Shown here one piece after another: positions 21,294-60,887 of a stretch of 64,000 nucleotides of DNA. The notes beneath the pieces are model-generated. The model made no database searches. It saw only the letters and a program-made list of their open reading frames with translations, and was not told the DNA's origin. Numbering within the stretch: the stretch's first letter is position 1; each line of letters begins with the position of its first letter. The DNA lies in assembly GCA_003152105.1 (NCBI GenBank), contig PLZJ01000002.1:311761-375760 (forward strand). The letters are read 5' to 3'. The stretch is from Candidatus Levyibacteriota bacterium. Its GTDB lineage: Bacteria > Patescibacteriota > Microgenomatia > Levybacterales > UBA12049. The translations under genes were made by a program, and so were the position numbers.

Positions 21294-22046
21294 CTACGGC
21301 GTCAACATTACAGGTTTATTATTAGTTATTGCTATGCTTCTTTCAAATACTCCAGACAAACTGTGATCTTTTGTTTTAATTGTCCATCCATCATTTCCAA
21401 AATAATAGACATCGGGCTTACCCATATTATAGATAACTTCAACTGCAATAGTCATGCCTGGTTTTAGAGGAGGTGTGTTCGTTATTTTTTCAAATAGTAC
21501 ACCTGGAATTTCTGGGTCTTCATGAAGTTGTTTCCCAACTCCATGTCCAATAAGATTTCTCACTACACTAAATCCAGCACCTTCAACAATACTTTGAATT
21601 GTTTGAGAAATGTTTCCAATTCTATTACCCGCATGAGCTTCTTCAATCGCATTAAATAAAGCTAATTTGCCTACTTCTAAAAATTTCTCCACCTCTGGTT
21701 TTATTTTGCCAACACCAACAGTTTCAGACATATCAGTATTTAAGCCTTTAAAAAAGACACCGCAATCAATACCAATAATATCTCCTTCTTTTAACGTATA
21801 TTTACCTGGAATTCCATGAACTACAACGTCGTTTGTTGAAGCGCAGATTGAATGCTTATATCCTTTTACTCTCATAAATCCAGGTTCCCCACCATATTTT
21901 CTAATTTGTCGATTTGCTAGTTCGTCGAGTTCGATTTCATTTACTCCAGGTTTAACATGTTCAACTACTTGTGACAGAACATCTGAAAGAATTTTTCCTC
22001 CTTCTTGCATTGCTCTTATTTCAGATTGTGATTTATAGTGAATCAT
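21294..22046 (-). CDS. map: type I methionine aminopeptidase
   Basis: ...HGIP......GDI..ID......G...D...T..VG... and HG.G...HE.P. Confidence 0.9.
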   Translation of the reverse strand: MIHYKSQSEIRAMQEGGKILSDVLSQVVEHVKPGVNEIELDELANRQIRKYGGEPGFMRVKGYKHSICASTNDVVVHGIPGKYTLKEGDIIGIDCGVFFKGLNTDMSETVGVGKIKPEVEKFLEVGKLALFNAIEEAHAGNRIGNISQTIQSIVEGAGFSVVRNLIGHGVGKQLHEDPEIPGVLFEKITNTPPLKPGMTIAVEVIYNMGKPDVYYFGNDGWTIKTKDHSLSGVFERSIAITNNKPVMLTP

Positions 22047-22591
22047 GTTTGTAGCGTTTTTGTAATAATTTCTTGAATATCTTCTACGCTTTGTTCGCCA
22101 TTTATTTCAGTAAGTAAATTAATATGTTTGAAATATTCAATTACAGGTTTTCTGTCTTCATCTTGATTTAGTCTTCTTTTATCAATTATTTCAATAATAT
22201 CATCCTTTCGTCCTCTGTTGAGAATTCTATTATTCATTTCATCTATAGAAATTGATAAATAAAATACTCTGTGAATCGAAAGATGTGATTCTCTCAAATA
22301 ATCCAGTAATGTATCTAAATCTTCTTGCGTAGCAGGATAATTGTCTAATATAAAACCTGATTGTGCTTTATCCATTTCGTTTTTAAGCAGTTCAAATTTA
22401 AGGCTATTTGGGACATGTAGTCCTTTTAAACTATATTCTTCTAATCCTTTAATTGCTTTATGATGTCCAACACTCGATGCTTCTCTAATGAGATGACCCA
22501 TGCCAAATATAGGAATTTGTAACTTTTGTCCAAGTAATTTAGACTGAGTATCTTTTCCTGCAAAAGGTGGACCAATAAAAATTATTATCAT
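22043..22591 (-). CDS. adenylate-kinase-family paralog #3, divergent: P-loop GPPFAGKDT, NMP motif MGHLIRE, GFILDNYPA. The catalytic Arg of G-F-P-R is replaced by Ala
   Basis: Collinear with Adk motifs throughout, including an RGRKDD LID-like segment, but key residues are substituted. 4-nt overlap with the neighbouring genes. Confidence 0.55.
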   Translation of the reverse strand: MIIIFIGPPFAGKDTQSKLLGQKLQIPIFGMGHLIREASSVGHHKAIKGLEEYSLKGLHVPNSLKFELLKNEMDKAQSGFILDNYPATQEDLDTLLDYLRESHLSIHRVFYLSISIDEMNNRILNRGRKDDIIEIIDKRRLNQDEDRKPVIEYFKHINLLTEINGEQSVEDIQEIITKTLQT

Positions 22592-23130
22592 ATTTTTTTA
22601 ATAAATTCTTCTAATTTCTCTTTGAAAACTTCTATGTTTTCATTGTTTTCTATATACACATCAGCAATTGCTGTACAAAAAGCTACTTGAAGTCCAGTGC
22701 TTTTTTCATTTAAACCTAAGTCTCGATAATCAAGTTTATTAAACAACTCCCATGTCAATTTTTCGCGTTTTTTATGATTTTTAATTCTATTAAAACGAAT
22801 AGCCCTATCAGAAATAACAGCAACGAGTATGAAATTTTTACTTTTTCTAAGTTCTTCAACTTCGCCAATATTTCGAATGCCATCTATAACAATTAGTTTG
22901 TGATTTTTTGTATTTTCAATCGCTTTCTTAGCGAGAATACCACTACCATAATCTTTTCTCCATTCATTTCCAATATCTTGTAACACTTTTCGAGTATTGG
23001 GGAGATTTCGATTTTGTACTTCTTCTTCTAGAAAGGAAGATAACGTAATAAGTTTATATTTCTTTGATACAAAAAATGATGCCGCTGTGGATTTTCCACT
23101 GCCAAATGCTCCAGTAATGCCAATTACCAT
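22588..23130 (-). CDS. P-loop nucleoside/nucleotide kinase family protein (paralog #2; CoaE/dNK-like, exact specificity unknown)
   Basis: MVIGITGAFGSGKST Walker A at residue 5-17, then ...LIVIDGIRN..EVEEL... No DAD motif of canonical dephospho-CoA kinase. Confidence 0.5.
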   Translation of the reverse strand: MVIGITGAFGSGKSTAASFFVSKKYKLITLSSFLEEEVQNRNLPNTRKVLQDIGNEWRKDYGSGILAKKAIENTKNHKLIVIDGIRNIGEVEELRKSKNFILVAVISDRAIRFNRIKNHKKREKLTWELFNKLDYRDLGLNEKSTGLQVAFCTAIADVYIENNENIEVFKEKLEEFIKKI

Positions 23131-23132
23131 GT

Positions 23133-23678
23133 TTATATTTTGACTCCAAGTTTACCTAATATTTCTTGGAATATGTCCTTAATTGGTTTTTCACCATCAA
23201 CTTCAATTAATTCCCCTTTTTTTCTATAAAAATCTAAAACCGGCTCAGTAAATTTATGAAAGCTCTCAATTCGTTTTCTCAGTGCAGCAAGTGTTTCATC
23301 TTCTCTGCTATCTGTATTTCGAAAGCTCAGTCTCCATAGTGCCTCTTTGTCAGAAACGTTTAAGTAAATGACTTTATCTATGCCGTTTTTAAAACTTTTT
23401 GATTGCGTTAATGTTCTTGGATAACCATCCATAATATAACCCTTTTCATATTCTGGTCGTGAAAGGTATTCGCTTACTATTTCATTTGTCTTATCATCGG
23501 GTATAAGATATCCAGCGTTCATTATCTCCTTAATATATCTACCCATTGCTGTTTTTTCTTTGGCAATTTCTCTAAATATGTGACCTGTAGATAAGTAAGG
23601 AATAGCTAGTTTTTTAGACAACAAGTTTCCTTGCGTAGATTTTCCTGCTCCTTGTATTCCTATTAATATAAGTTTCAT
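23133..23678 (-). CDS. adk: adenylate kinase (short-LID type), the canonical copy
   Basis: ILIGIQGAGKSTQ, STGHIFRE, GYIMDGYPRT (catalytic Arg retained), ...VDGEKPI..I...I. Confidence 0.85.
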   Translation of the reverse strand: MKLILIGIQGAGKSTQGNLLSKKLAIPYLSTGHIFREIAKEKTAMGRYIKEIMNAGYLIPDDKTNEIVSEYLSRPEYEKGYIMDGYPRTLTQSKSFKNGIDKVIYLNVSDKEALWRLSFRNTDSREDETLAALRKRIESFHKFTEPVLDFYRKKGELIEVDGEKPIKDIFQEILGKLGVKI

Positions 23679-23683
23679 ATAAT

Positions 23684-24970
23684 TTATTTTCTAAAACCTT
23701 CGTAGCTTCTCATGACGAGTTGAGCTTCAATTTGTTTAATTGTATCCAGCACGACGCTAACTACAATTAAAATACCAGTTCCTCCTAGCAATAAATTTTG
23801 GACGCCAGTTGCTGTTCTTGCTATTGTCGGAAAGATAGCTATTAAACCGAGAAAGATAGCGCCTGCTAGTGTAATACGAGTTAATATATAATTCAAGTAT
23901 TTTGCAGTTGGGGTACCAGGTCTAATTCCTGGTATAAATCCTCCATATTTTTGTATTTCTTCGGCAATTTTCTTTGGATTAAAAATTACTGCAGTATAAA
24001 AATAAGTAAATCCAATGACAAGAACAAAATATAAGATATTATAAAGCCAGCCATTTGGATCAAACCATACGGTTAAATTCGTACCAAGCGCATGAAGCGC
24101 AGGATTTTTTACAGCAGAGAAATAATTCGCTAGTAATGTAGGAAGTAGCACTAGTGAAACAGCAAAAATAATAGGAATAACACCTGCTTGATTAAGTCGA
24201 AGGGGCAAATGAGTGGATTGTCCACCTGAAATATTATTACCGCGAACTGATCTCGCGTAATAAACCGTGATTTGTCTTGTTGCTTCATTGATTATAACTA
24301 TTCCTCCAATAACTACCAGACCCATAACAAGAAATGTTAATATGCTTCCAAAATTAGTACCTGTTGTCGTAGTAGCAGTTTGCGTAAATGCAACAGGGAG
24401 TCTGCCTACAATGCCAGCAAAAATAAGAACTGAAATACCATTTCCTACGCCACGTTCAGATATTAATTCCCCTAGCCACACAAGTAGCATAGTTCCAGCT
24501 GTCATAGTTATCACAAAAGAAAGTAGTCCAAGGGGAGTAAGTACTGAAATTATATCTTGGCTTTTTAAGAGAGCATACATTCCTATTGATTGTACTGCAG
24601 CAAGTGGAACAGTAAGCATTCTAGTATATTGATTTATTTTTTGTCTTCCCTGCTCTCCTTCTTTTGATAATTCCTCAAGTTTAGGAAACACCATAGTCAA
24701 TAATTGGAGAATAATCGAAGCATTAATATAAGGATTTAGTCCAAGAGCCATGATAGAAAATGAAGCGAGTGTGCCGCCAGAAAAAATATCTAAAAGTCCA
24801 AGAAATTGATTTTGTGCAAATAGGACTTTAAGTTTTGTGATATCTACTCCAGCTACTGGGATGTGAGCAAAGAGTCTAAATACGATAAAAATAAGTGCAG
24901 TAAATAATAGTTTTTTCCGTACTTCTTCTGCTTTAAAACTGTTGCGAAATAAACTTAATAAGTTATTCAT
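23684..24970 (-). CDS. secY: preprotein translocase subunit SecY
   Basis: Ten-TM protein with ...[16 protein letters not shown]... and ...[14 protein letters not shown]... Confidence 0.95.
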
Positions 24971-25443
24971 GAGTCAGTAGAAAGACCCTGTTTATTAATT
25001 TCTTTTTCTTCAACACTTCCCCCAGCTTTTTCGATTTTTATTTTCGCTGAATTTGATACTGGGAGTAAAACGGTTATTGGATTTTGTAATTCGCCGTCTC
25101 CGAGTATTTTTACTCCAAATTCTAAAGCATCTTGTGCGTTAACTATTTTGTGTTTTATTAATAATTCTAGTGTTACCTTACTGTTTTTTGGAACTAAATT
25201 TAAATATTTTATATTAACGGTAATTGGTCGTTTTTTAAATGACTTATTTCTTCCTTTCCCTCGTAAAAAAGGTAGGCGTTTTTTTAGTGGTAATGCACCA
25301 CCTTCAAAATATTGTGGAATTGATCGTTTTGCTTTTTGACCTTTAGTACCTCTTCCAGAAGTTTTGCCACGACCAGTTCCATGTCCCTGGCCACCTCTTT
25401 TTTTCGCTTTTGTAGTTGTTTTTATAAGTTTATGTAGTTCCAT
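24967..25443 (-). CDS. rplO: 50S ribosomal protein L15
   Basis: Gly/Arg-rich N-terminus ...[22 protein letters not shown]. It sits directly after S5, with no L30 gene between. Confidence 0.9.
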
Positions 25444-25936
25444 GTTTTTCTCCCTTCATTGATTTGCTTGTTCTTTTCTTAATATTATTATATCTAATAG
25501 AAAGTAATTTAAGCGCCTCGATGGTTGCATATACATTACTTGCTTGATTATCACTTCCAAGTACTTTAGATGAGATATTTTTAATTCCTGCAGCTGATAC
25601 TACTGATCGTACCGCTCCTCCTGCGATTACTCCTGATCCTTGTGGTGCTGGTTTTAGCATTATTCTTGCTCCGCCTCTTTTTATGAGTATTTCAATTGGG
25701 ATAGTGTCTCGAATTATCGGAACTTTAACCATATGTTTTCTGGCCAAACTACTGCCTTTTCTAATAGCAAAAGATACGTCAGGAGCTTTTCCAAGTCCTA
25801 CCCCAACGTGACCATTTTTGTCACCAACGACTATAAGGGCTGAAAAACCTATTTTATTTCCTCCTTTAGTTTTTTTAGAAACTCTGTTAATTTGAACAAT
25901 TTGTTCAATAAACTCATCTTGTCTATTTGGTTCCAT
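25430..25936 (-). CDS. rpsE: 30S ribosomal protein S5
   Basis: ...V..I.RV.KV.KGG....F.AL.VVGD..G.VG.G.GKA..V..AI.KG...A... Confidence 0.9.
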   Translation of the reverse strand: MEPNRQDEFIEQIVQINRVSKKTKGGNKIGFSALIVVGDKNGHVGVGLGKAPDVSFAIRKGSSLARKHMVKVPIIRDTIPIEILIKRGGARIMLKPAPQGSGVIAGGAVRSVVSAAGIKNISSKVLGSDNQASNVYATIEALKLLSIRYNNIKKRTSKSMKGEKHGTT

Positions 25937-38137: not shown

Positions 38138-38752
38138 TTATGAGAGTGCTAAAAATGTATTAGCTTGAAGCGGAATTTTTGGTGTAGGTTTTTTTCTCAA
38201 GTGTAGTGTGTCTTTGTTTCCAGATGCTCCACCCAATAGCCGCACAATCATTATCGCAGGGTCTTTTCCTGAAAAGCCTTGATGATATATTTCGGGCTCG
38301 ATTTCGTGTGTGTTTCCTGGTAGTAGTAATGTGCTACCCAAAGATATTAGTTGATGATCCCTCATTCTATACTGCGCAATCTCTAATGGGCCGGATTTTT
38401 CTCCGGGAATTATGTAATACAATTCATCCGGTTGATTGGCTGGTTTTTCATTAAAGGCATGGTTGTGTAATGAAGTGTTAGCATAGGAAGGAAGACCAAG
38501 AACATAGATTCTATCCTTACCGCTAATTTCTCCGTCAATAACATAAAATGCATCAGACCCTTCATGTCTTATAAATTGCGTAAATGTGGAAAAATGTTCA
38601 TCCAATTCTTTTTTTGAAAAAACATTTTGTAAAACGAGCTCATTGATAAGCGTTTGCTTCCATTCAAGACCTAACCCCTCTCTAAATGGATTTACTATTA
38701 GTGAAGTACCCATGTGTTCGCCCATATGTTGCTTGTCATTTTCTGCCTTCAT
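38138..38752 (-). CDS. hypothetical protein (possibly cupin-like)
   Basis: 204-aa soluble ORF with His-rich patches (HNHAFNE, HEIEPEIYHQG). No confident family assignment. Confidence 0.35.
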   Translation of the reverse strand: MKAENDKQHMGEHMGTSLIVNPFREGLGLEWKQTLINELVLQNVFSKKELDEHFSTFTQFIRHEGSDAFYVIDGEISGKDRIYVLGLPSYANTSLHNHAFNEKPANQPDELYYIIPGEKSGPLEIAQYRMRDHQLISLGSTLLLPGNTHEIEPEIYHQGFSGKDPAIMIVRLLGGASGNKDTLHLRKKPTPKIPLQANTFLALS

Positions 38753-38844: not shown

Positions 38845-39354
38845 TTGTACTTCATAATGATCAAGAACGTTGCAATCGGCGTATTATTAATTGTAGTAAT
38901 AATTGAATCTGGCTTGTTACTTAAGCATTCGAGTTCACCTTCTCAGTTAGCAATGACACCACAGGCTTCGAATAAATCTACTTTACCTCCAGCAGGTCCA
39001 AATGCACTACGAAGAGGTGGGCCTCCGGTAATAATGAGTAAAGGTATGAATTTACTAACATCTCCACTTTTTAAATATGCATATCAAATTGCTCCCGGAG
39101 CTGTATCTACAGATTCACAGAAAGCACTCACGGGATGGTCCGTTGATTCAAAAACCGCCGCAGATGGATCAGTTGTTGTTTCATTAACACCTAAAGATTC
39201 TGATGACCAAAGTCAAACATATACGATAAAATCAGGAGAGAAATTATACTTTATTGAACAAACGCCAGCTGATGATAAAGTAGATCAAGATAAGGATTTA
39301 AATTATAGAGATGATTACGGAATAATAGTAGATCAGTCAGGCATCATTCAGTAG
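38845..39354 (+). CDS. hypothetical membrane-anchored / secreted protein
   Basis: N-terminal hydrophobic helix, then a Ser/Pro linker and a small hydrophilic domain. Confidence 0.35.
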   Translation: MYFIMIKNVAIGVLLIVVIIESGLLLKHSSSPSQLAMTPQASNKSTLPPAGPNALRRGGPPVIMSKGMNLLTSPLFKYAYQIAPGAVSTDSQKALTGWSVDSKTAADGSVVVSLTPKDSDDQSQTYTIKSGEKLYFIEQTPADDKVDQDKDLNYRDDYGIIVDQSGIIQ

Positions 39355-57385: not shown

Positions 57386-58069
57386 CTAAATGTGCTTGCC
57401 AAGAATCAGGGGCTCATAGCTTCGAGCGTCTTGTAGCAACTGTTCACGTGCAATACCGGCCTTAGCGCGAATTTTCAAACCCTGCACTAGGTCAACGAGC
57501 GCACGACTTCGCACCTTGGCAGAAGGTGTTCGAGTCAGACGACCTGCCTTTATCTCCTTTTCGAAACGTATCGCGAAAATATCAGCAGATTCATTGAGGG
57601 CTTTTGCGACAAATATACGTATCTCCGTTACACGCTCCGACTGTCCCAGCGTAGCGGAAAGCATCAGGCAACCGGCACGACCCTCACTCGAAGCGGTGTT
57701 GACAGTAGCCTCACAAAGGGCCGCTACAGCCTTATGGATATCCGGCTCCGCTCGAAAATCTGCCAGCATGGCTGCTCCATACGTTATTGCATAGCGCTCA
57801 ACCGCCTTGAGTAGTAGGGTTGACTTGTTTCCGAAGGCTCGGTAAATCGCGGGTTTGGTGACATTCACAGCCCGTGCGATCCGATTTACGTCAACTCCTT
57901 CATACCCATGTTCCCAAAACATCTCAACGGCACGATCGAGGGCTTCGTCAGGGATAAAGCTTTTTGGACGTCCTGGTGTTCGGTTTGTTGTATTAGTTAC
58001 CATAGAGTATGAAATTGGTCCTTGCATTACACTTTTTATTATTATACTCTTGAGTATGTAATACATCAA
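57386..58069 (-). CDS. TetR/AcrR family transcriptional regulator (GC-rich, foreign-looking composition)
   Basis: An N-terminal HTH ...LDRAVEMFWEHGYEGVDVNRIARAVNVTKPAIYRAFGNKSTLL... and an all-alpha C-terminal domain. Codon usage is GC3-rich, unlike the flanking genes. Confidence 0.8.
   Translation of the reverse strand: MMYYILKSIIIKSVMQGPISYSMVTNTTNRTPGRPKSFIPDEALDRAVEMFWEHGYEGVDVNRIARAVNVTKPAIYRAFGNKSTLLLKAVERYAITYGAAMLADFRAEPDIHKAVAALCEATVNTASSEGRAGCLMLSATLGQSERVTEIRIFVAKALNESADIFAIRFEKEIKAGRLTRTPSAKVRSRALVDLVQGLKIRAKAGIAREQLLQDARSYEPLILGKHI
58044..58057. promoter_or_regulatory. palindrome ATACTC-TT-GAGTAT overlapping a TATACT -10-like box in the 23-bp tetR/SDR divergent junction. Candidate TetR operator
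   Basis: A 6-2-6 perfect inverted repeat inside the AT-rich divergent promoter region between the tetR start (58069) and the SDR start (58093). Confidence 0.3.
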
Positions 58070-58092
58070 GTCAGTTAAACAAAGGAGACTAT

Positions 58093-59097
58093 ATGGATAC
58101 GATCAAAGAAAAAACAAGTCGACCCTCACTTTCTACAATGAAGAAATCTATCAAACATTCGATCGCACTCATCACCGGTGCCACCTCAGGGGTCGGTTAT
58201 GCGGCTGGCCGCATGCTCGCCATCGAGGGCTACCGTCAGATCATCGTTACCGGACGCAGTCTGGCCCAGATTCAAGAAACGGCCGCTCAGCTCGCGGCTG
58301 AGACCAAGATACAGGTCTTCACGCCGCTGGAACTGGAGCTGGATAGTGTATCCAGCGTTCAGTCCTTCCTCGCCGAGCACGTCAAGCGAGGTCAGCCGGT
58401 CGACTTCCTACTGCTCAATGCAGGAATCATGGGACGTAAGGAACTCAAGCTCACTGCGGCAGGAATAGAGATGTCTTCGGCTCCGCTCATCGGCCATCAT
58501 CAACTGACTGTCGGGTTGCTCCGCGCCAAGCTGTTGAGCCCGAATGCTCGAATTGTTATTGCCAGCTCGGAAGCTGCCCGAGGTGATGTACCCCTGTTCA
58601 GCTACACCGATGTAGCGGCCTTCGCGGCCAAATACTTCCAGGGTGACCGAACCGCTGCTGTGGAAGCCTTGTTGCATAGCGGACCGAATGTAAAATATCA
58701 GCCCAACCGGGCGTTCGCAGATGCGAAACTAATCGGTACTTTGTGGGTAGCTGCACTGGCTCGCCGGCTGCCCTCCGGCATGGCGATATATGCCGTTTCG
58801 CCTGGTGCCGCGCCTGCCACCAATGCGGTGCGAAACGCAGGTCTCCTTACGAGATTGGTGCTGATTCCACTGACGAAGCTTATCCCCGGCATGTCTCATA
58901 CTCCTGAGACCGCGGCCCGTCGGTATCTCAATGCATCGGAATTCGGAACCGACGTTTCGGGTCAATTCTTCGCATCGCCGCCCAAGAAGTTAACCGGCCC
59001 AATCGAGGCAATGCGCCAACCACACTTTCACGATCGAGCCAACCAGGAAGCCGCGTGGCAGGCCGTCGTCAAGGTTACGGGCGTCGATTTGTCTTAA
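58093..59097 (+). CDS. short-chain dehydrogenase/reductase (SDR) family oxidoreductase (GC-rich)
   Basis: ...IALITGATSGVGYAAGRML... (TGxxxGxG), ...LLLNAGIM... (NAG), and AAGGAG Shine-Dalgarno before ATG 58093. Divergent from the TetR gene. Confidence 0.8.
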   Translation: MDTIKEKTSRPSLSTMKKSIKHSIALITGATSGVGYAAGRMLAIEGYRQIIVTGRSLAQIQETAAQLAAETKIQVFTPLELELDSVSSVQSFLAEHVKRGQPVDFLLLNAGIMGRKELKLTAAGIEMSSAPLIGHHQLTVGLLRAKLLSPNARIVIASSEAARGDVPLFSYTDVAAFAAKYFQGDRTAAVEALLHSGPNVKYQPNRAFADAKLIGTLWVAALARRLPSGMAIYAVSPGAAPATNAVRNAGLLTRLVLIPLTKLIPGMSHTPETAARRYLNASEFGTDVSGQFFASPPKKLTGPIEAMRQPHFHDRANQEAAWQAVVKVTGVDLS

Positions 59098-59466
59098 CCA
59101 GCATCCTTGAGAGCGGTGTTCTGAAATTCTGAAATTAAATCACTGGTTTCTTTACGTATCCCAGCTTGTTGCTGTCTATTTTGCTCTATAGTTTACCCAA
59201 GTGGGCTTAATTAGTTGTGTTGAAACTAATGATCCAATTGGCGGCAAATTTTTGACGAGCTTTTCAATTAGCTAGGACACTCAAGTTCAGTATTATATAC
59301 TATAAGACTGTTAATGAGCCTGTAAGTCATGACTTATCAGTGTCTCATTTGTCTCACTAAGCCTGTATAAGAGACATCGCTATAATGATAATATGGGTTT
59401 AGACCGCTATACTCAGGGATTGCGGATTCGGCCGAAGCTATTTGGTACCTATTTAAATGACAGTTC

Positions 59467-59492
59467 AAAAAATGTCATTGGCCTCAATTAGC
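59467..59492 (+). repeat. copy 2 of the secA-terminus direct repeat (aaaaaatgtcattggcctcaattagc)
   Basis: See copy 1. It lies about 370 bp after the SDR stop and just before an AT-rich spacer. Confidence 0.7.
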
Positions 59493-59724
59493 CTAACTTT
59501 ACTTTTATACAATTATTGCCTTAATTACTATTTATGATTTTTTCCAAAAGAAAAAACCACCCTTTATTATTATCCGCTTACGCGGTCCCAAGAAGGGAAG
59601 GATGGTTTAGATATTCAATTGTAGATTTGTGCAGCCGAAGCTGGATTGATAACGGGATCATCCGTCTTGGTCGTCGAATTGACGCTCAAGCCCCATGGAG
59701 ACCATGAGTTTATGTGATATTCAG

Positions 59725-60645
59725 TTATTTGGTTGGCGTCGACGATCCGTTCCCGAGACTCCCCAAGTTGAAGAGATTGCCCGAGTTGTTCGGAAGGACG
59801 TAGACCTTCGCTTGTCCGTAGAGGCTCTGTACCGCCTGGATCGAGAGATATCTCAGCACCTGCGGTGAAAGCGACTTGGTCAAGAGGGAGTTAGCCTTTG
59901 ATTGGCCTTCTGCCTTGGCGATGGTAGCCCTACGAGCTCCTTCAGCTTGTGCAACGACTTGTTGCGCTTGAAGTTGAGCTGTTTGAACCTGCTGGGCCGC
60001 GATCTGTTTTGCCTCGATGCTCTGCTCGAACTGCTTGCTGTAGTTGAAGTTTGAGATAAGTAGATTGTCTACTATAATCCCATTCTTCCCAAGATCAGTC
60101 GTGAGAGCATTCTGGATTTTGACAGAAAGCTGAGCTCGATTCGGAGCGATCTCCACCGTGTGGTAGTGAGATACTTGCTCCTTCACGTCTTGCTGGACTT
60201 GGTTTGGTACCAAGACATCGAACCAGTCAACTCCAAAATCTCGGTAGAGATGTTGAAGTTTGGTCGGATCGAGATGGTAGTTCAGCTGGACATCAAACGT
60301 TAGAGTCTGAGACTCCTTCGAGAACGCGTTGATGTTGTTTTCCGTGAACTTCTGCGTCTTGACGTTGGCGGTGTGGACCGAATTCCAAGGTGCGACAAAG
60401 TGCGTTCCCGATTGAAGGGGAGACCCGCTAAGTACACCGGAATAGTTGTAGACCATACCGACTTGCCCGGTTCCGATGTTTTGGATCGATGCTATGAAGA
60501 AGATCACAAAATACAGAACCACTGTAGCTCCGGCGGCCGCCCATCCTGCACCTTTTTCGCCTGTTGTTTCACCGAAGAGACCGAATGCCAGTCCGAGAAA
60601 GATGATGATGAGTCCGACGACAGTTAAACCGATCCATAGTGCCAT
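59725..60645 (-). CDS. SPFH / band-7 (stomatin-prohibitin-HflK/C-like) membrane protein (GC-rich)
   Basis: N-terminal TM helices, then ...GQVGMVYNYSGVLSGSPLQSGTHFVAPW... and a long Ala/Gln coiled-coil tail (...AQQVQTAQLQAQQVVAQAEGARRATIAKAEG...), typical of SPFH domains. Confidence 0.8.
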   Translation of the reverse strand: MALWIGLTVVGLIIIFLGLAFGLFGETTGEKGAGWAAAGATVVLYFVIFFIASIQNIGTGQVGMVYNYSGVLSGSPLQSGTHFVAPWNSVHTANVKTQKFTENNINAFSKESQTLTFDVQLNYHLDPTKLQHLYRDFGVDWFDVLVPNQVQQDVKEQVSHYHTVEIAPNRAQLSVKIQNALTTDLGKNGIIVDNLLISNFNYSKQFEQSIEAKQIAAQQVQTAQLQAQQVVAQAEGARRATIAKAEGQSKANSLLTKSLSPQVLRYLSIQAVQSLYGQAKVYVLPNNSGNLFNLGSLGNGSSTPTK

Positions 60646-60887
60646 GTGCGTTCAACTCCTTGTTGTTATTTCGGCATTGATCGAACTACTTTTAGTGCTA
60701 CACGTTTCACCCTCCATTTTGTTATTTGTTGTCTTCTCATTTATGCCCATGATAGATTATGGATTAGTACAAATATTTATACTTTTGCATAAAAAAGAAG
60801 ACAACTTTTCTCAGCAATTGAGAGTTAATAAAGGATGTCCTACAATTAAATGTAAATGTGCTACTAAATTCCCTATAGGGTATTTAG

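What the first reader, a model, noticed from the sequence alone, without database searches (positions are those of the whole stretch)
22043..23678. Three tandem NMP-kinase paralogs between secY and map; the third lacks the catalytic arginine
The conserved secY-adk-map junction here holds a canonical short-LID adenylate kinase (23133-23678). It also holds a second P-loop kinase with an N-terminal GITGAFGSGKST Walker A (22588-23130) and a third Adk-like protein (22043-22591). In the third protein the Walker loop is GPPFAGKDT, the NMP-binding TGDMLR is MGHLIRE, and the GFPR arginine is alanine (GFILDNYPA). The genes overlap by 4 nt, which implies co-translation within the essential ribosomal operon. 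Paralogs 2 and 3 may supply missing nucleotide-salvage kinases (CMP/UMP/dNMP) in a reduced genome, or may be regulatory pseudo-kinases.
Basis: partly seen in the sequence, partly recalled or inferred. Interest (0 to 1): 0.55.

Follow-up and report, generated by a model that had tools for sequence, protein, structure and literature searches.

The report
Adenylate-kinase paralog standing in for cytidylate kinase
In this small, reduced Levybacteria genome, three nucleotide-kinase genes sit between secY and map, and the odd third one (an adenylate-kinase copy missing a normally invariant arginine) occupies exactly the slot that holds an ordinary cytidylate kinase in close relatives, so it is probably a new kind of CMP kinase, not a dead gene.

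Summary
Three intact ORFs lie between secY and map at the stated coordinates: P1 23133-23678, P2 22588-23130, P3 22043-22591, all on the minus strand.

- **P1** is a canonical short-LID adenylate kinase.
- **P2** is not an Adk paralog. It belongs to the uncharacterised SSO1041/UPF0200-type P-loop kinases. It is also homologous to the kinase domain of anti-phage dCTP deaminases.
- **P3** is an Adk-family protein in which R88 (E. coli numbering) is Ala.

The R88 change in P3 is fixed: 113 Ala and 7 Gly among 120 homologs. It comes with G10->Y/F, T31->M, G85->N and Q92->D. K13, R36, D84, R119, R123, R156, D158 and R167 stay invariant. P3 is therefore a conserved enzyme with a rebuilt acceptor site, not a pseudo-kinase.

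The cassette is a Candidatus Levybacteria trait, seen in 34 GTDB species. Among 111 related loci, the gene just upstream of map is either P3 (77) or a bona fide cmk (34), never both. The two types are interleaved on the locus tree, with at least 12 switches. One pair shares 83% nucleotide identity everywhere except that cassette. In a sister lineage, P2 and an R88-retaining P3 relative are fused into one protein.

Best reading: P3 is an Adk-derived stand-in for cytidylate kinase, and P2 is a functionally linked pyrimidine-related kinase. No substrate has been tested.

The parts
23684..24970 (-). secY, upstream anchor of the cassette
   Evidence: 428-aa ORF. Pfam SecY on the identical gene of the source scaffold.
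23133..23678 (-). P1: canonical short-LID adenylate kinase (adk)
   Evidence: Pfam ADK 4.3e-35, 121.5 bits. All of G10, K13, T31, R36, G85, R88, Q92, R123, R156, D158 and R167 are canonical. Orthologs in 29 Levybacteria species average 69% pairwise identity, as conserved as secY.
22588..23130 (-). P2: SSO1041/UPF0200-type P-loop kinase, substrate unknown
   Evidence: Pfam gives only AAA_18/AAA_17, and CoaE is below cutoff. NCBIfam hits the kinase half of anti-phage dCTP deaminase at 2.6e-17 and PRK08356 at 2e-14. PADLOC dCTPase kinase domain 2.9e-28. PDB SSO1041 (3lw7/3h0k) 3e-17 over the full length. AlphaFold model pLDDT 93.3, with Foldseek top hit 3lw7 at TM 0.81-0.86.
22043..22591 (-). P3 ('Adk2'): Adk-family kinase with a rebuilt acceptor site (G10F, T31M, G85N, R88A, Q92D); proposed cytidylate-kinase analog
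   Evidence: Pfam ADK 4.6e-21. Model pLDDT 93.1, TM 0.92 to M. tuberculosis Adk 2cdn. Signature conserved in 120 homologs. Shares its slot with canonical cmk in relatives.
22588..22591 (-). ATGA overlap of the P2 stop and the P3 start
   Evidence: Read directly from the sequence.
22043..22046 (-). ATGA overlap of the P3 stop and the map start
   Evidence: Read directly from the sequence.
21294..22046 (-). map (methionine aminopeptidase), downstream anchor of the cassette
   Evidence: 250-aa ORF. Pfam Peptidase_M24 on the source scaffold.

Best explanation
The secY-map interval of this Candidatus Levybacteria (Patescibacteria) genome carries a conserved nucleotide-kinase cassette. It is probably co-transcribed with the ribosomal-protein genes.

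P1 is the housekeeping adenylate kinase.

P3 belongs to an old Adk-derived paralog clade ('Adk2'). It keeps the ATP site and the phosphoryl-transfer machinery: the Walker Lys, Asp84, R36, R119, R123, R156, D158/D159 and R167. Every residue that reads the acceptor nucleotide in Adk has been replaced: T31M, K57L, L58H, V64K, G85N, R88A and Q92D. It most likely works as an ATP:(d)CMP phosphotransferase, possibly UMP/CMP, and does the job of cytidylate kinase. Asp91 sits where eukaryotic UMP/CMP kinases carry an Asn. Two clade-specific arginines, R140 and R147, lie on the helix that carries R167 and are candidates to replace R88 as a phosphate ligand.

P2 is a separate SSO1041/UPF0200-type P-loop kinase. 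It acts in the same pyrimidine-nucleotide route, either on an adjacent step or on a sister substrate.

Shown: the family assignments, the residue conservation, the slot-sharing with cmk and the P2::Adk2 fusion.

Inferred: the substrates, the compensating arginines and co-transcription.
For: (1) P3 is under purifying selection with an intact catalytic core. In 120 homologs K13, R36, R119, R156, D158, D159 and R167 are 100% conserved and R123 is 118/120. Over the same set, G10->Y/F, T31->M (119), G85->N (119), R88->A/G (120) and Q92->D (120) are fixed. Mean pairwise identity across 29 species is 0.51, against 0.61 for map and 0.54 for P2.

(2) Slot-sharing with cmk. In 80 metagenomic loci recovered with the P2 profile, the gene between P2 and map is P3 in 42 and Cmk in 32. 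Six loci are truncated and none has both. The Cmk proteins pass the TIGR00017 equivalog cutoff, scoring 187-229 bits against 135.55. Adding the GTDB loci gives 77 P3-type and 34 Cmk-type, with no locus holding both.

(3) The two types are interleaved on a concatenated secY+adk+map NJ tree, with at least 12 switches by parsimony. L163 (Cmk) and L172 (P3) are 83% identical in DNA over 3.5 kb upstream and 2.3 kb downstream. They differ only in the cassette.

R88-retaining sister forms carry D or N at this site. NCBIfam scores P3 about equally on the UMP_CMP_kin_fam (96.5) and adk (99.7) models. P1 scores 100.5 and 152.2 on the same two models.

(5) Functional link between P2 and P3. Eight protein clusters (48-100% identity) are P2::Adk2 fusions, found in secY-adk-[fusion]-ADK-map loci. 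In the window the two genes overlap by 4 nt.

(6) Pyrimidine link for P2-type domains. A P2-like domain is fused to a dCMP deaminase next to a thymidylate kinase gene. P2 is also homologous to the kinase domain of dCTP deaminases.

(7) Clade-specific gains that accompany R88A: L168->R140 (87%), T175->R147 (96%), Y171->Q143 (100%) and L58->H59 (99%).

(8) Context from the literature. Only 51% of Patescibacteriota genomes encode PNPase together with Cmk, and Cmk is proposed to be central to their RNA-based nucleotide economy (preprint 10.64898/2026.06.21.733656).
Against: - No biochemical data exist for any member of the clade.
- Slot-sharing shows interchangeability of position, not of function. 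I could not scan whole genomes, so P3-type genomes may still carry cmk elsewhere, and the reverse.
- R88A in E. coli Adk leaves under 1% activity (PMC8297476), so P3 could be a poor catalyst. The equivalent R97A in short-LID human AK1 keeps 19% (same paper).
- The proposed compensating arginines were inferred from alignment and helix periodicity only. No model coordinates were available.
- About a third of P3-carrying species (12 of the 34 GTDB loci) lack P2 at this locus, so the P2-P3 coupling is not obligatory.
- The trees are rough NJ trees, and the metagenome loci include some near-duplicates.
Confidence: 0.58

Rival explanations
1. P3 is an active kinase for some other acceptor (UMP, GMP, a dNMP, a nucleoside or an NDP). 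The P2-map junction is simply a recombination hot spot where different kinase genes are dropped in, with no functional equivalence to Cmk.
For: The interval holds variable extra kinase genes. A fourth ADK-like ORF occurs in L016, L026 and L028 and in four Cmk-type loci. A third ADK follows the fusion in L088. An Asp at the base-reading position would also suit guanine. Gmk is reported absent from at least one cultivated Patescibacterium.
Against: Strict mutual exclusivity in 111 loci, with at least 12 switches and none holding both, is what analogous displacement predicts. A hot spot for unrelated genes would be expected to yield some loci with both or with neither. The N/D at position 92 matches UMP/CMP kinases.
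Confidence: 0.2
2. P3 is still an adenylate kinase: a second, kinetically different AMP kinase isozyme in which other arginines replace R88.
For: Its best sequence and fold matches are bacterial Adks. Its ATP-site and LID residues are canonical.
Against: Q92, T31 and G85 contact the AMP adenine in E. coli Adk (from my memory of the Ap5A complex). All are replaced by fixed, different residues. A canonical, better-conserved Adk lies two genes upstream in every locus.
Confidence: 0.1
3. P3 is a catalytically impaired pseudo-kinase or nucleotide-binding regulator, or a Fap7/AK6-like ATPase linked to ribosome assembly. It would be retained in the ribosomal operon for a non-metabolic role.
For: It has lost one of the five conserved active-site arginines, and the same change cuts E. 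coli Adk activity to under 1%. It lies inside the ribosomal-protein operon. The P-loop Gly10 is replaced by an aromatic residue.
Against: All remaining catalytic residues are invariant across about 50% sequence divergence. The operon position is inherited from adk and shared with cmk. Sister Adk2 forms keep R88. A Bacteroidota Adk-like family also has Tyr at position 10 together with canonical STGD and GYPR motifs, so that change need not inactivate.
Confidence: 0.08

Closest known systems
Bacterial short-LID adenylate kinase (Pfam PF00406; e.g. M. tuberculosis Adk, PDB 2cdn/1p4s)
   Same: P1 fully matches. P3 shares the fold (TM 0.92), the Walker A lysine, R36, D84, R119, R123, R156, D158 and R167, the short LID, and the position between secY and map.
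   Different: P3 lacks R88 (Ala) and the adenine-reading Q92 (Asp). It also has T31M, G85N and G10F. It forms a separate clade from the Levybacteria Adk orthologs and is 30% identical to P1.
Eukaryotic-type UMP/CMP kinase (TIGR01359; human CMPK1 1tev, yeast 1uky, Dictyostelium 1qf9)
   Same: It is an Adk-family, short-LID enzyme that phosphorylates pyrimidine NMPs. It has a short polar residue (Asn) where Adk has Q92, and P3 has Asp there. P3 scores as well on this model as on the adk model.
   Different: UMP/CMP kinases keep the GFPR arginine. P3 scores far below the family cutoff (96.5 against 207.6 bits).
Bacterial cytidylate kinase Cmk (TIGR00017/PF02224)
   Same: It occupies the identical genomic slot (P2-[x]-map) in sister Levybacteria and never co-occurs with P3 there. 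This is the proposed shared function.
   Different: It is a different NMP-kinase family with an inserted NMP-binding domain. P3 shows no significant similarity to it (Pfam Cytidylate_kin E 0.025, TIGR00017 E 0.023).
SSO1041 / UPF0200 'AdkA-like' protein (PDB 3lw7, 3h0k) and the archaeal CoaE-like kinases
   Same: P2 aligns over its full length (E 3e-17, 31% identity, TM 0.81-0.86).
   Different: No function is known for the family. T. kodakarensis CoaE-like proteins TK1334 and TK2192 (arCOG01045) lack dephospho-CoA kinase activity (PMC6650551). That SSO1041 belongs to that arCOG is my recollection and was not tested here. P2 is bacterial and embedded in a kinase cassette.
Kinase domain of anti-phage dCTP deaminase (NF041025; PADLOC dCTPase)
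   Same: P2 is homologous to this domain (2.6e-17 and 2.9e-28). That domain is needed for dCTP depletion (10.1101/2021.04.26.441389).
   Different: P2 has no deaminase domain, is a housekeeping-operon gene, and scores 62.8 bits against a cutoff of 400. It is not a defence protein.

Membership tests
Adenylate kinase family (PF00406), P1 | Pfam ADK score above the gathering threshold, plus canonical G10, K13, T31, R36, G85, R88, Q92, R123, R156, D158 and R167 | tested here: met
   121.5 bits against 26.8. All residues canonical. It stays below the NCBIfam equivalog cutoffs (163 against 187), as expected for a divergent CPR sequence.
Adenylate kinase family (PF00406), P3 | Domain-level homology and the Adk fold | tested here: met
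   76 bits against 26.8. TM 0.92 to 2cdn.
Adenylate kinase (enzyme, EC 2.7.4.3), P3 | NMP-phosphate arginine R88 of the GFPR motif | tested here: not met
   Ala87 in the window. Ala in 113 and Gly in 7 of 120 homologs.
Adenylate kinase (enzyme, EC 2.7.4.3), P3 | Adenine-specific Gln92 (with T31 and G85) in the AMP site | tested here: not met
   Asp in 120/120, Met31 in 119/120, Asn85 in 119/120.
Adenylate kinase (enzyme, EC 2.7.4.3), P3 | ATP-site and transfer residues K13, D84, R119, R123, R156, D158, R167 | tested here: met
   Invariant or nearly so in 120-149 homologs.
Adenylate kinase (enzyme, EC 2.7.4.3), P3 | ATP:AMP phosphotransferase activity | not testable with these tools
   Needs an enzyme assay.
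UMP/CMP kinase family (TIGR01359), P3 | Score above the family cutoff | tested here: not met
   96.5 bits against 207.6.
UMP/CMP kinase family (TIGR01359), P3 | Asn (a short polar residue) at the Adk-Q92 position, together with the GFPR arginine | tested here: inconclusive
   Asp aligns with the Asn (reference sequence from memory). The arginine is absent.
Cytidylate kinase Cmk (TIGR00017), P3 | Sequence membership | tested here: not met
   14.4 bits against 135.55. The proposed relation is functional analogy, not homology at family level.
Cytidylate kinase Cmk (function), P3 | Genomic interchangeability with cmk | tested here: met
   77 P3-type and 34 Cmk-type loci, none with both. At least 12 switches. 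Clean cassette swap between L163 and L172.
Cytidylate kinase Cmk (function), P3 | Genome-wide absence of cmk where P3 is present | not testable with these tools
   Only 3-10 kb of flank could be fetched. There is no Cmk in the 64-kb window.
SSO1041/UPF0200-type kinase, P2 | Full-length sequence and structural similarity | tested here: met
   E 3e-17 over residues 2-177. TM 0.81-0.86.
Dephospho-CoA kinase CoaE (PF01121/TIGR00152), P2 | Score above the cutoffs over the whole domain | tested here: not met
   PF01121 scores 23.2 against 27, over residues 1-39 only. TIGR00152 scores 20 against 65.55. The 'dephospho-CoA kinase' labels on homologs are therefore unsupported.
Anti-phage dCTP deaminase (NF041025), P2 | Kinase domain plus C-terminal zinc deaminase domain | tested here: not met
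   Only the kinase half matches (profile positions 2-207 of 437; 62.8 bits against 400). P2 is 180 aa with no deaminase.

The most novel reading that the evidence does not exclude
Levybacteria and neighbouring Patescibacteria carry a previously unrecognised pyrimidine-salvage module. Its first part is an Adk-derived CMP (UMP/CMP) kinase that has dispensed with the 'invariant' GFPR arginine by relocating arginines to the R167 helix. Its second part is an SSO1041/UPF0200-type kinase that is fused to it in some lineages. This would give the first functional context for a family that is also nearly universal in archaea and forms the kinase half of anti-phage dCTP deaminases. The module swaps repeatedly with canonical cmk by cassette exchange inside the ribosomal operon. 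It would explain part of the apparent absence of Cmk in about half of Patescibacteriota genomes.
Probability: 0.3. Interest if true: 0.7.

Novelty: new variant of a known kind. Interest (0 to 1): 0.55.

Why it matters
Patescibacteria cannot make nucleotides de novo and depend on phosphotransferases to recycle host-derived nucleotides. A 2026 preprint argues that Cmk is central to that economy, yet finds it together with PNPase in only about half of the genomes.

An Adk-derived analog that alternates with cmk in the same operon slot would fill part of that gap. It would also correct the current 'adenylate kinase / nucleoside monophosphate kinase' annotations of these genes.

For enzymologists, it would offer a natural experiment on whether R88, one of five conserved arginines of a textbook enzyme, can be lost and relocated.

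The P2::Adk2 and P2::dCMP-deaminase fusions give the first testable functional context for the uncharacterised SSO1041/UPF0200-like kinases. They may also bear on the kinase domain of defensive dCTP deaminases.

Tried and rejected
- **P2 as dephospho-CoA kinase.** Several sources label its homologs this way. I rejected it: only the P-loop region matches CoaE and scores are below cutoff. Archaeal CoaE-like relatives lack that activity.
- **P2 as a defence dCTP deaminase.** Rejected because there is no deaminase domain.
- **P3 as a recent tandem duplicate of the resident adk.** Rejected: it is 30% identical to P1, forms a separate clade, and has R88-retaining sister forms outside Levybacteria.
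- **Literature search for UPF0200/SSO1041.** Returned nothing. 'Levybacteria' with 'adenylate kinase' returned one paper, which I judged irrelevant from its title and abstract.
- **The exhaustive representative search.** It was swamped by multi-domain ADK-repeat proteins, probably eukaryotic, whose summed scores outrank single domains. Only single-domain hits and one 390-aa fusion were informative.
- **Promoter and terminator scan.** Uninformative: counts equal the shuffled expectation, and there is no terminator inside the cassette.
- **Profile search of PDB with the P3 family.** It did not discriminate Adk from UMP/CMP kinase.
- **Other NMP kinases in the window.** Pfam on ten mid-sized window ORFs and tblastn with Cmk found none.
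- **Model coordinates.** These are not exported, so I could not measure distances from R140, R147 or K65 to the acceptor phosphate.
Full report
**1. What is in the sequence**

On the minus strand the window carries the 3' part of the ribosomal spc/alpha operon. Between secY (23684-24970) and map (21294-22046) there are three complete ORFs: P1 23133-23678 (181 aa), P2 22588-23130 (180 aa) and P3 22043-22591 (182 aa).

The P2 stop overlaps the P3 start, and the P3 stop overlaps the map start, each as ATGA. P1 and P2 are separated by 2 nt, and secY and P1 by 5 nt. No terminator-like site lies inside the cassette, and promoter-like matches equal the shuffled expectation. This is consistent with co-transcription but does not prove it.

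The identical genes lie on a 1.14-Mb metagenomic scaffold (ENA ERZ28653421, WOOD18-1). Close homologs are named Candidatus Levybacteria/Levyibacteriota. S5 is followed directly by L15 with no L30. From my own knowledge, that is usual for Patescibacteria.

**2. Family assignment**

- **P1** is an ordinary short-LID adenylate kinase. It scores Pfam ADK 121.5 bits, and all diagnostic residues are canonical.
- **P3** is also an ADK-family protein. It scores 76 bits, its best PDB sequence match is M. tuberculosis Adk, and its AlphaFold model (pLDDT 93.1) has TM 0.92 to 2cdn.
- **P2** is not an Adk paralog.
  - BLASTP against P1 and P3 is not significant, and Pfam gives only generic AAA_18/AAA_17.
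  - It matches the S. solfataricus structural-genomics protein SSO1041 ('UPF0200', 'AdkA-like', crystallised with AMP) over its whole length. The sequence match is E 3e-17. The model has pLDDT 93.3 and TM 0.81-0.86.
  - It also matches the kinase half of anti-phage dCTP deaminases: NCBIfam 2.6e-17 and PADLOC 2.9e-28.
  - The 'dephospho-CoA kinase' label on some homologs is not supported, because CoaE models match only the P-loop and fall below cutoff.
  - Archaeal CoaE-like kinases tested in T. kodakarensis lack that activity and have no known function (PMC6650551). That SSO1041 belongs to the same arCOG is my recollection and was not tested.

**3. The missing arginine is real, fixed and part of a coordinated change**

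I aligned P3 with 120 homologs plus E. coli and M. tuberculosis Adk (E. coli numbering).

| Group | Residues |
|---|---|
| Conserved in all 120 | G7, P9, G12, K13, R36, R119, R156, D158, D159, R167 |
| Nearly conserved | R123 (118/120) |
| Changed and fixed | G10->Y/F (117), T31->M (119), G85->N (119), R88->A (113) or G (7), Q92->D (120) |

The ATP site and the LID/transfer arginines are therefore intact. The residues that contact the acceptor AMP in Adk are all replaced by new, conserved residues.

Across 29 species, mean pairwise identity is 0.51 for P3, 0.54 for P2, 0.61 for map, 0.69 for P1 and 0.68 for secY. P3 evolves faster than P1 but is clearly constrained.

R88 is one of five conserved active-site arginines. 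R88A leaves under 1% activity in E. coli Adk. The equivalent R97A leaves 19% in short-LID human AK1 (PMC8297476).

I then compared the A88 clade with its R88-retaining relatives. The loss coincides with gains of Arg at positions 168 (R140, 87%) and 175 (R147, 96%). It also coincides with Gln at 171 and His at 58. Positions 171 and 175 lie one and two helical turns after R167, roughly on the same face. I propose these arginines as candidate replacements for R88.

**4. Distribution and origin**

- A scan of one genome per GTDB species found the P3 signature in 34 loci, all with the order secY-adk-[P2]-P3-map. Those whose titles are informative are named Levybacteria/Levyibacteriota, Microgenomates or 'Patescibacteria group'; about a dozen carry an apparently wrong 'uncultured Gammaproteobacteria' title. 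P2 is present in 22 of the 34. Three loci carry a fourth ADK-like ORF.
- In a library of 1.84 billion representative proteins, only about seven 50%-identity clusters carry A88 together with D92.
- The next relatives keep R or K at position 88 but already have D or N at 92 (P0261, P0277, P0303). Those with enough flanking sequence to judge are a second ADK gene between adk and map.
- On an NJ tree the P3 clade is sister to these forms and separate from the Levybacteria Adk clade. 'Adk2' is therefore an old paralog. The order of change was Q92->D/N first, then R88->A with G10->aromatic.

**5. P2 and Adk2 are functionally linked**

A 390-aa protein, P0298, is a fusion of a P2-type domain (165 bits) and an Adk2-type domain. 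The Adk2 domain scores 150 bits on the P3 profile against 86 on the P1 profile. P0298 was seen on nine contigs from several samples. Its locus reads secY-adk-[P2::Adk2]-ADK-map.

Eight clusters at 48-100% identity share this architecture. All retain R88 and have D92.

Separately, a P2-like domain is fused to a dCMP deaminase and sits next to a thymidylate kinase gene. Together with the homology to dCTP-deaminase kinase domains, this ties P2-type kinases to pyrimidine, and especially cytosine, nucleotide metabolism. It does not reveal the substrate.

**6. The key result: P3 and cmk share one slot**

A P2 homolog at 56% identity lies in secY-adk-P2-[Cytidylate_kin]-map. A metagenome scan with the P2 profile returned 80 loci, all in this operon.

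| Gene between P2 and map | Loci |
|---|---|
| P3 | 42 |
| Canonical Cmk | 32 |
| Truncated | 6 |
| Both | 0 |

Five of the Cmk proteins were scored and exceed the TIGR00017 equivalog cutoff, at 187-229 bits against 135.55. Adding the GTDB loci gives 77 P3-type and 34 Cmk-type, and no locus has both.

On a concatenated secY+adk+map NJ tree of 66 loci (858 columns), the two types are interleaved, with at least 12 changes by parsimony. L163 (Cmk) and L172 (P3) come from the same sample series. They are 83% identical in DNA over 3.5 kb upstream and 2.3 kb downstream, and differ only in the segment between the P2 stop and the map start.

This is the pattern expected for in-situ non-orthologous displacement of functionally equivalent genes.

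It fits the chemistry. P3 scores as well on the UMP/CMP-kinase model as on the adk model, unlike P1.

**7. Interpretation**

- **Most likely (about 0.58).** P3 is an active ATP-dependent kinase that does the job of cytidylate kinase. P2 acts on a neighbouring step or a sister substrate of pyrimidine salvage. Both are translationally coupled to map in an operon whose expression tracks growth.
- **Rivals.**
  - P3 uses another acceptor, with only positional coincidence with cmk (0.2).
  - P3 is a second AMP kinase (0.1).
  - P3 is a pseudo-kinase or ATPase (0.08).

The main gap is the lack of a genome-wide check that P3-type genomes lack cmk. The 64-kb window has none, but it is only about 6% of the scaffold.

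**8. Novelty and significance**

I found no description of these paralogs, of the P2::Adk2 fusion or of the Cmk/P3 alternation. Databases call P3 'adenylate kinase' or 'nucleoside monophosphate kinase'.

A 2026 preprint reports that Patescibacteriota live on host RNA through PNPase plus Adk/Cmk. It finds PNPase together with Cmk in only 51% of genomes. An unrecognised Cmk analog bears directly on that gap.

This is a new variant of a known kind: an NMP kinase with changed specificity and a relocated catalytic residue. It is not a new category of system. Interest 0.55.

Noticed in passing
window 57400-60800: A G+C-rich island at 44-56% GC, against about 33% for the rest of the window. It carries a TetR-family regulator (57386-58069, -), a short-chain dehydrogenase (58093-59097, +) and an SPFH/Band 7 protein (59725-60645, -). 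It looks like horizontally acquired DNA or an assembly chimera.
   Followed up: partly
L016:2816-3439, L026:2552-3205, L028:2496-3419; also L097, L117, L119, L123: Some Levybacteria have a fourth, very divergent ADK-like gene (207-307 aa) between adk and P2. It has GPEGSGK, keeps R88, and has E or Q at position 92. It occurs with both P3-type and Cmk-type cassettes, so the interval can hold four kinase genes.
   Followed up: partly
L088:5454-8554 (also L089-L092, L087): A sister Patescibacteria lineage has secY-adk-[P2::Adk2 fusion, 390 aa]-third ADK (185 aa in L088; the L087 homolog P0359 has V31, N85, R88, Q92)-map. That makes four kinase domains in three genes.
   Followed up: partly
L095:444-2051: A thymidylate kinase gene is followed by a 348-aa fusion of a P2-like kinase domain with a dCMP/cytidine deaminase domain (P0399). 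This is a small, probably housekeeping counterpart of the kinase-deaminase architecture of anti-phage dCTP deaminases.
   Followed up: partly
L037-L081 (e.g. L040:3995-4558): Bacteroidota (Flavobacterium, Chitinophaga, Saprospiraceae, Aquimarina) encode an Adk-like protein of about 187 aa with the P-loop GPPYSGKGT. It has Tyr at the G10 position, as in P3, but canonical STGD..R and DGYPRT motifs, and the ±4 kb fetched holds no secY or map. It may be a second, uncharacterised NMP kinase family.
   Followed up: no
window 24967-25936: Ribosomal protein S5 (25430-25936) is followed directly by L15 (24967-25443) with no L30 gene. This is consistent with a Patescibacteria origin.
   Followed up: no
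L003, L006, L012, L018, L020 and others: Many GTDB records that carry this Levybacteria-type operon are titled 'uncultured Gammaproteobacteria bacterium' (the CAZ.../CAY... assemblies). The titles look like mislabelled taxonomy.
   Followed up: no
window 38138-38752 (-) and 38845-39354 (+): Two ORFs of 204 and 169 aa have no Pfam match at E<=0.001.
   Followed up: no
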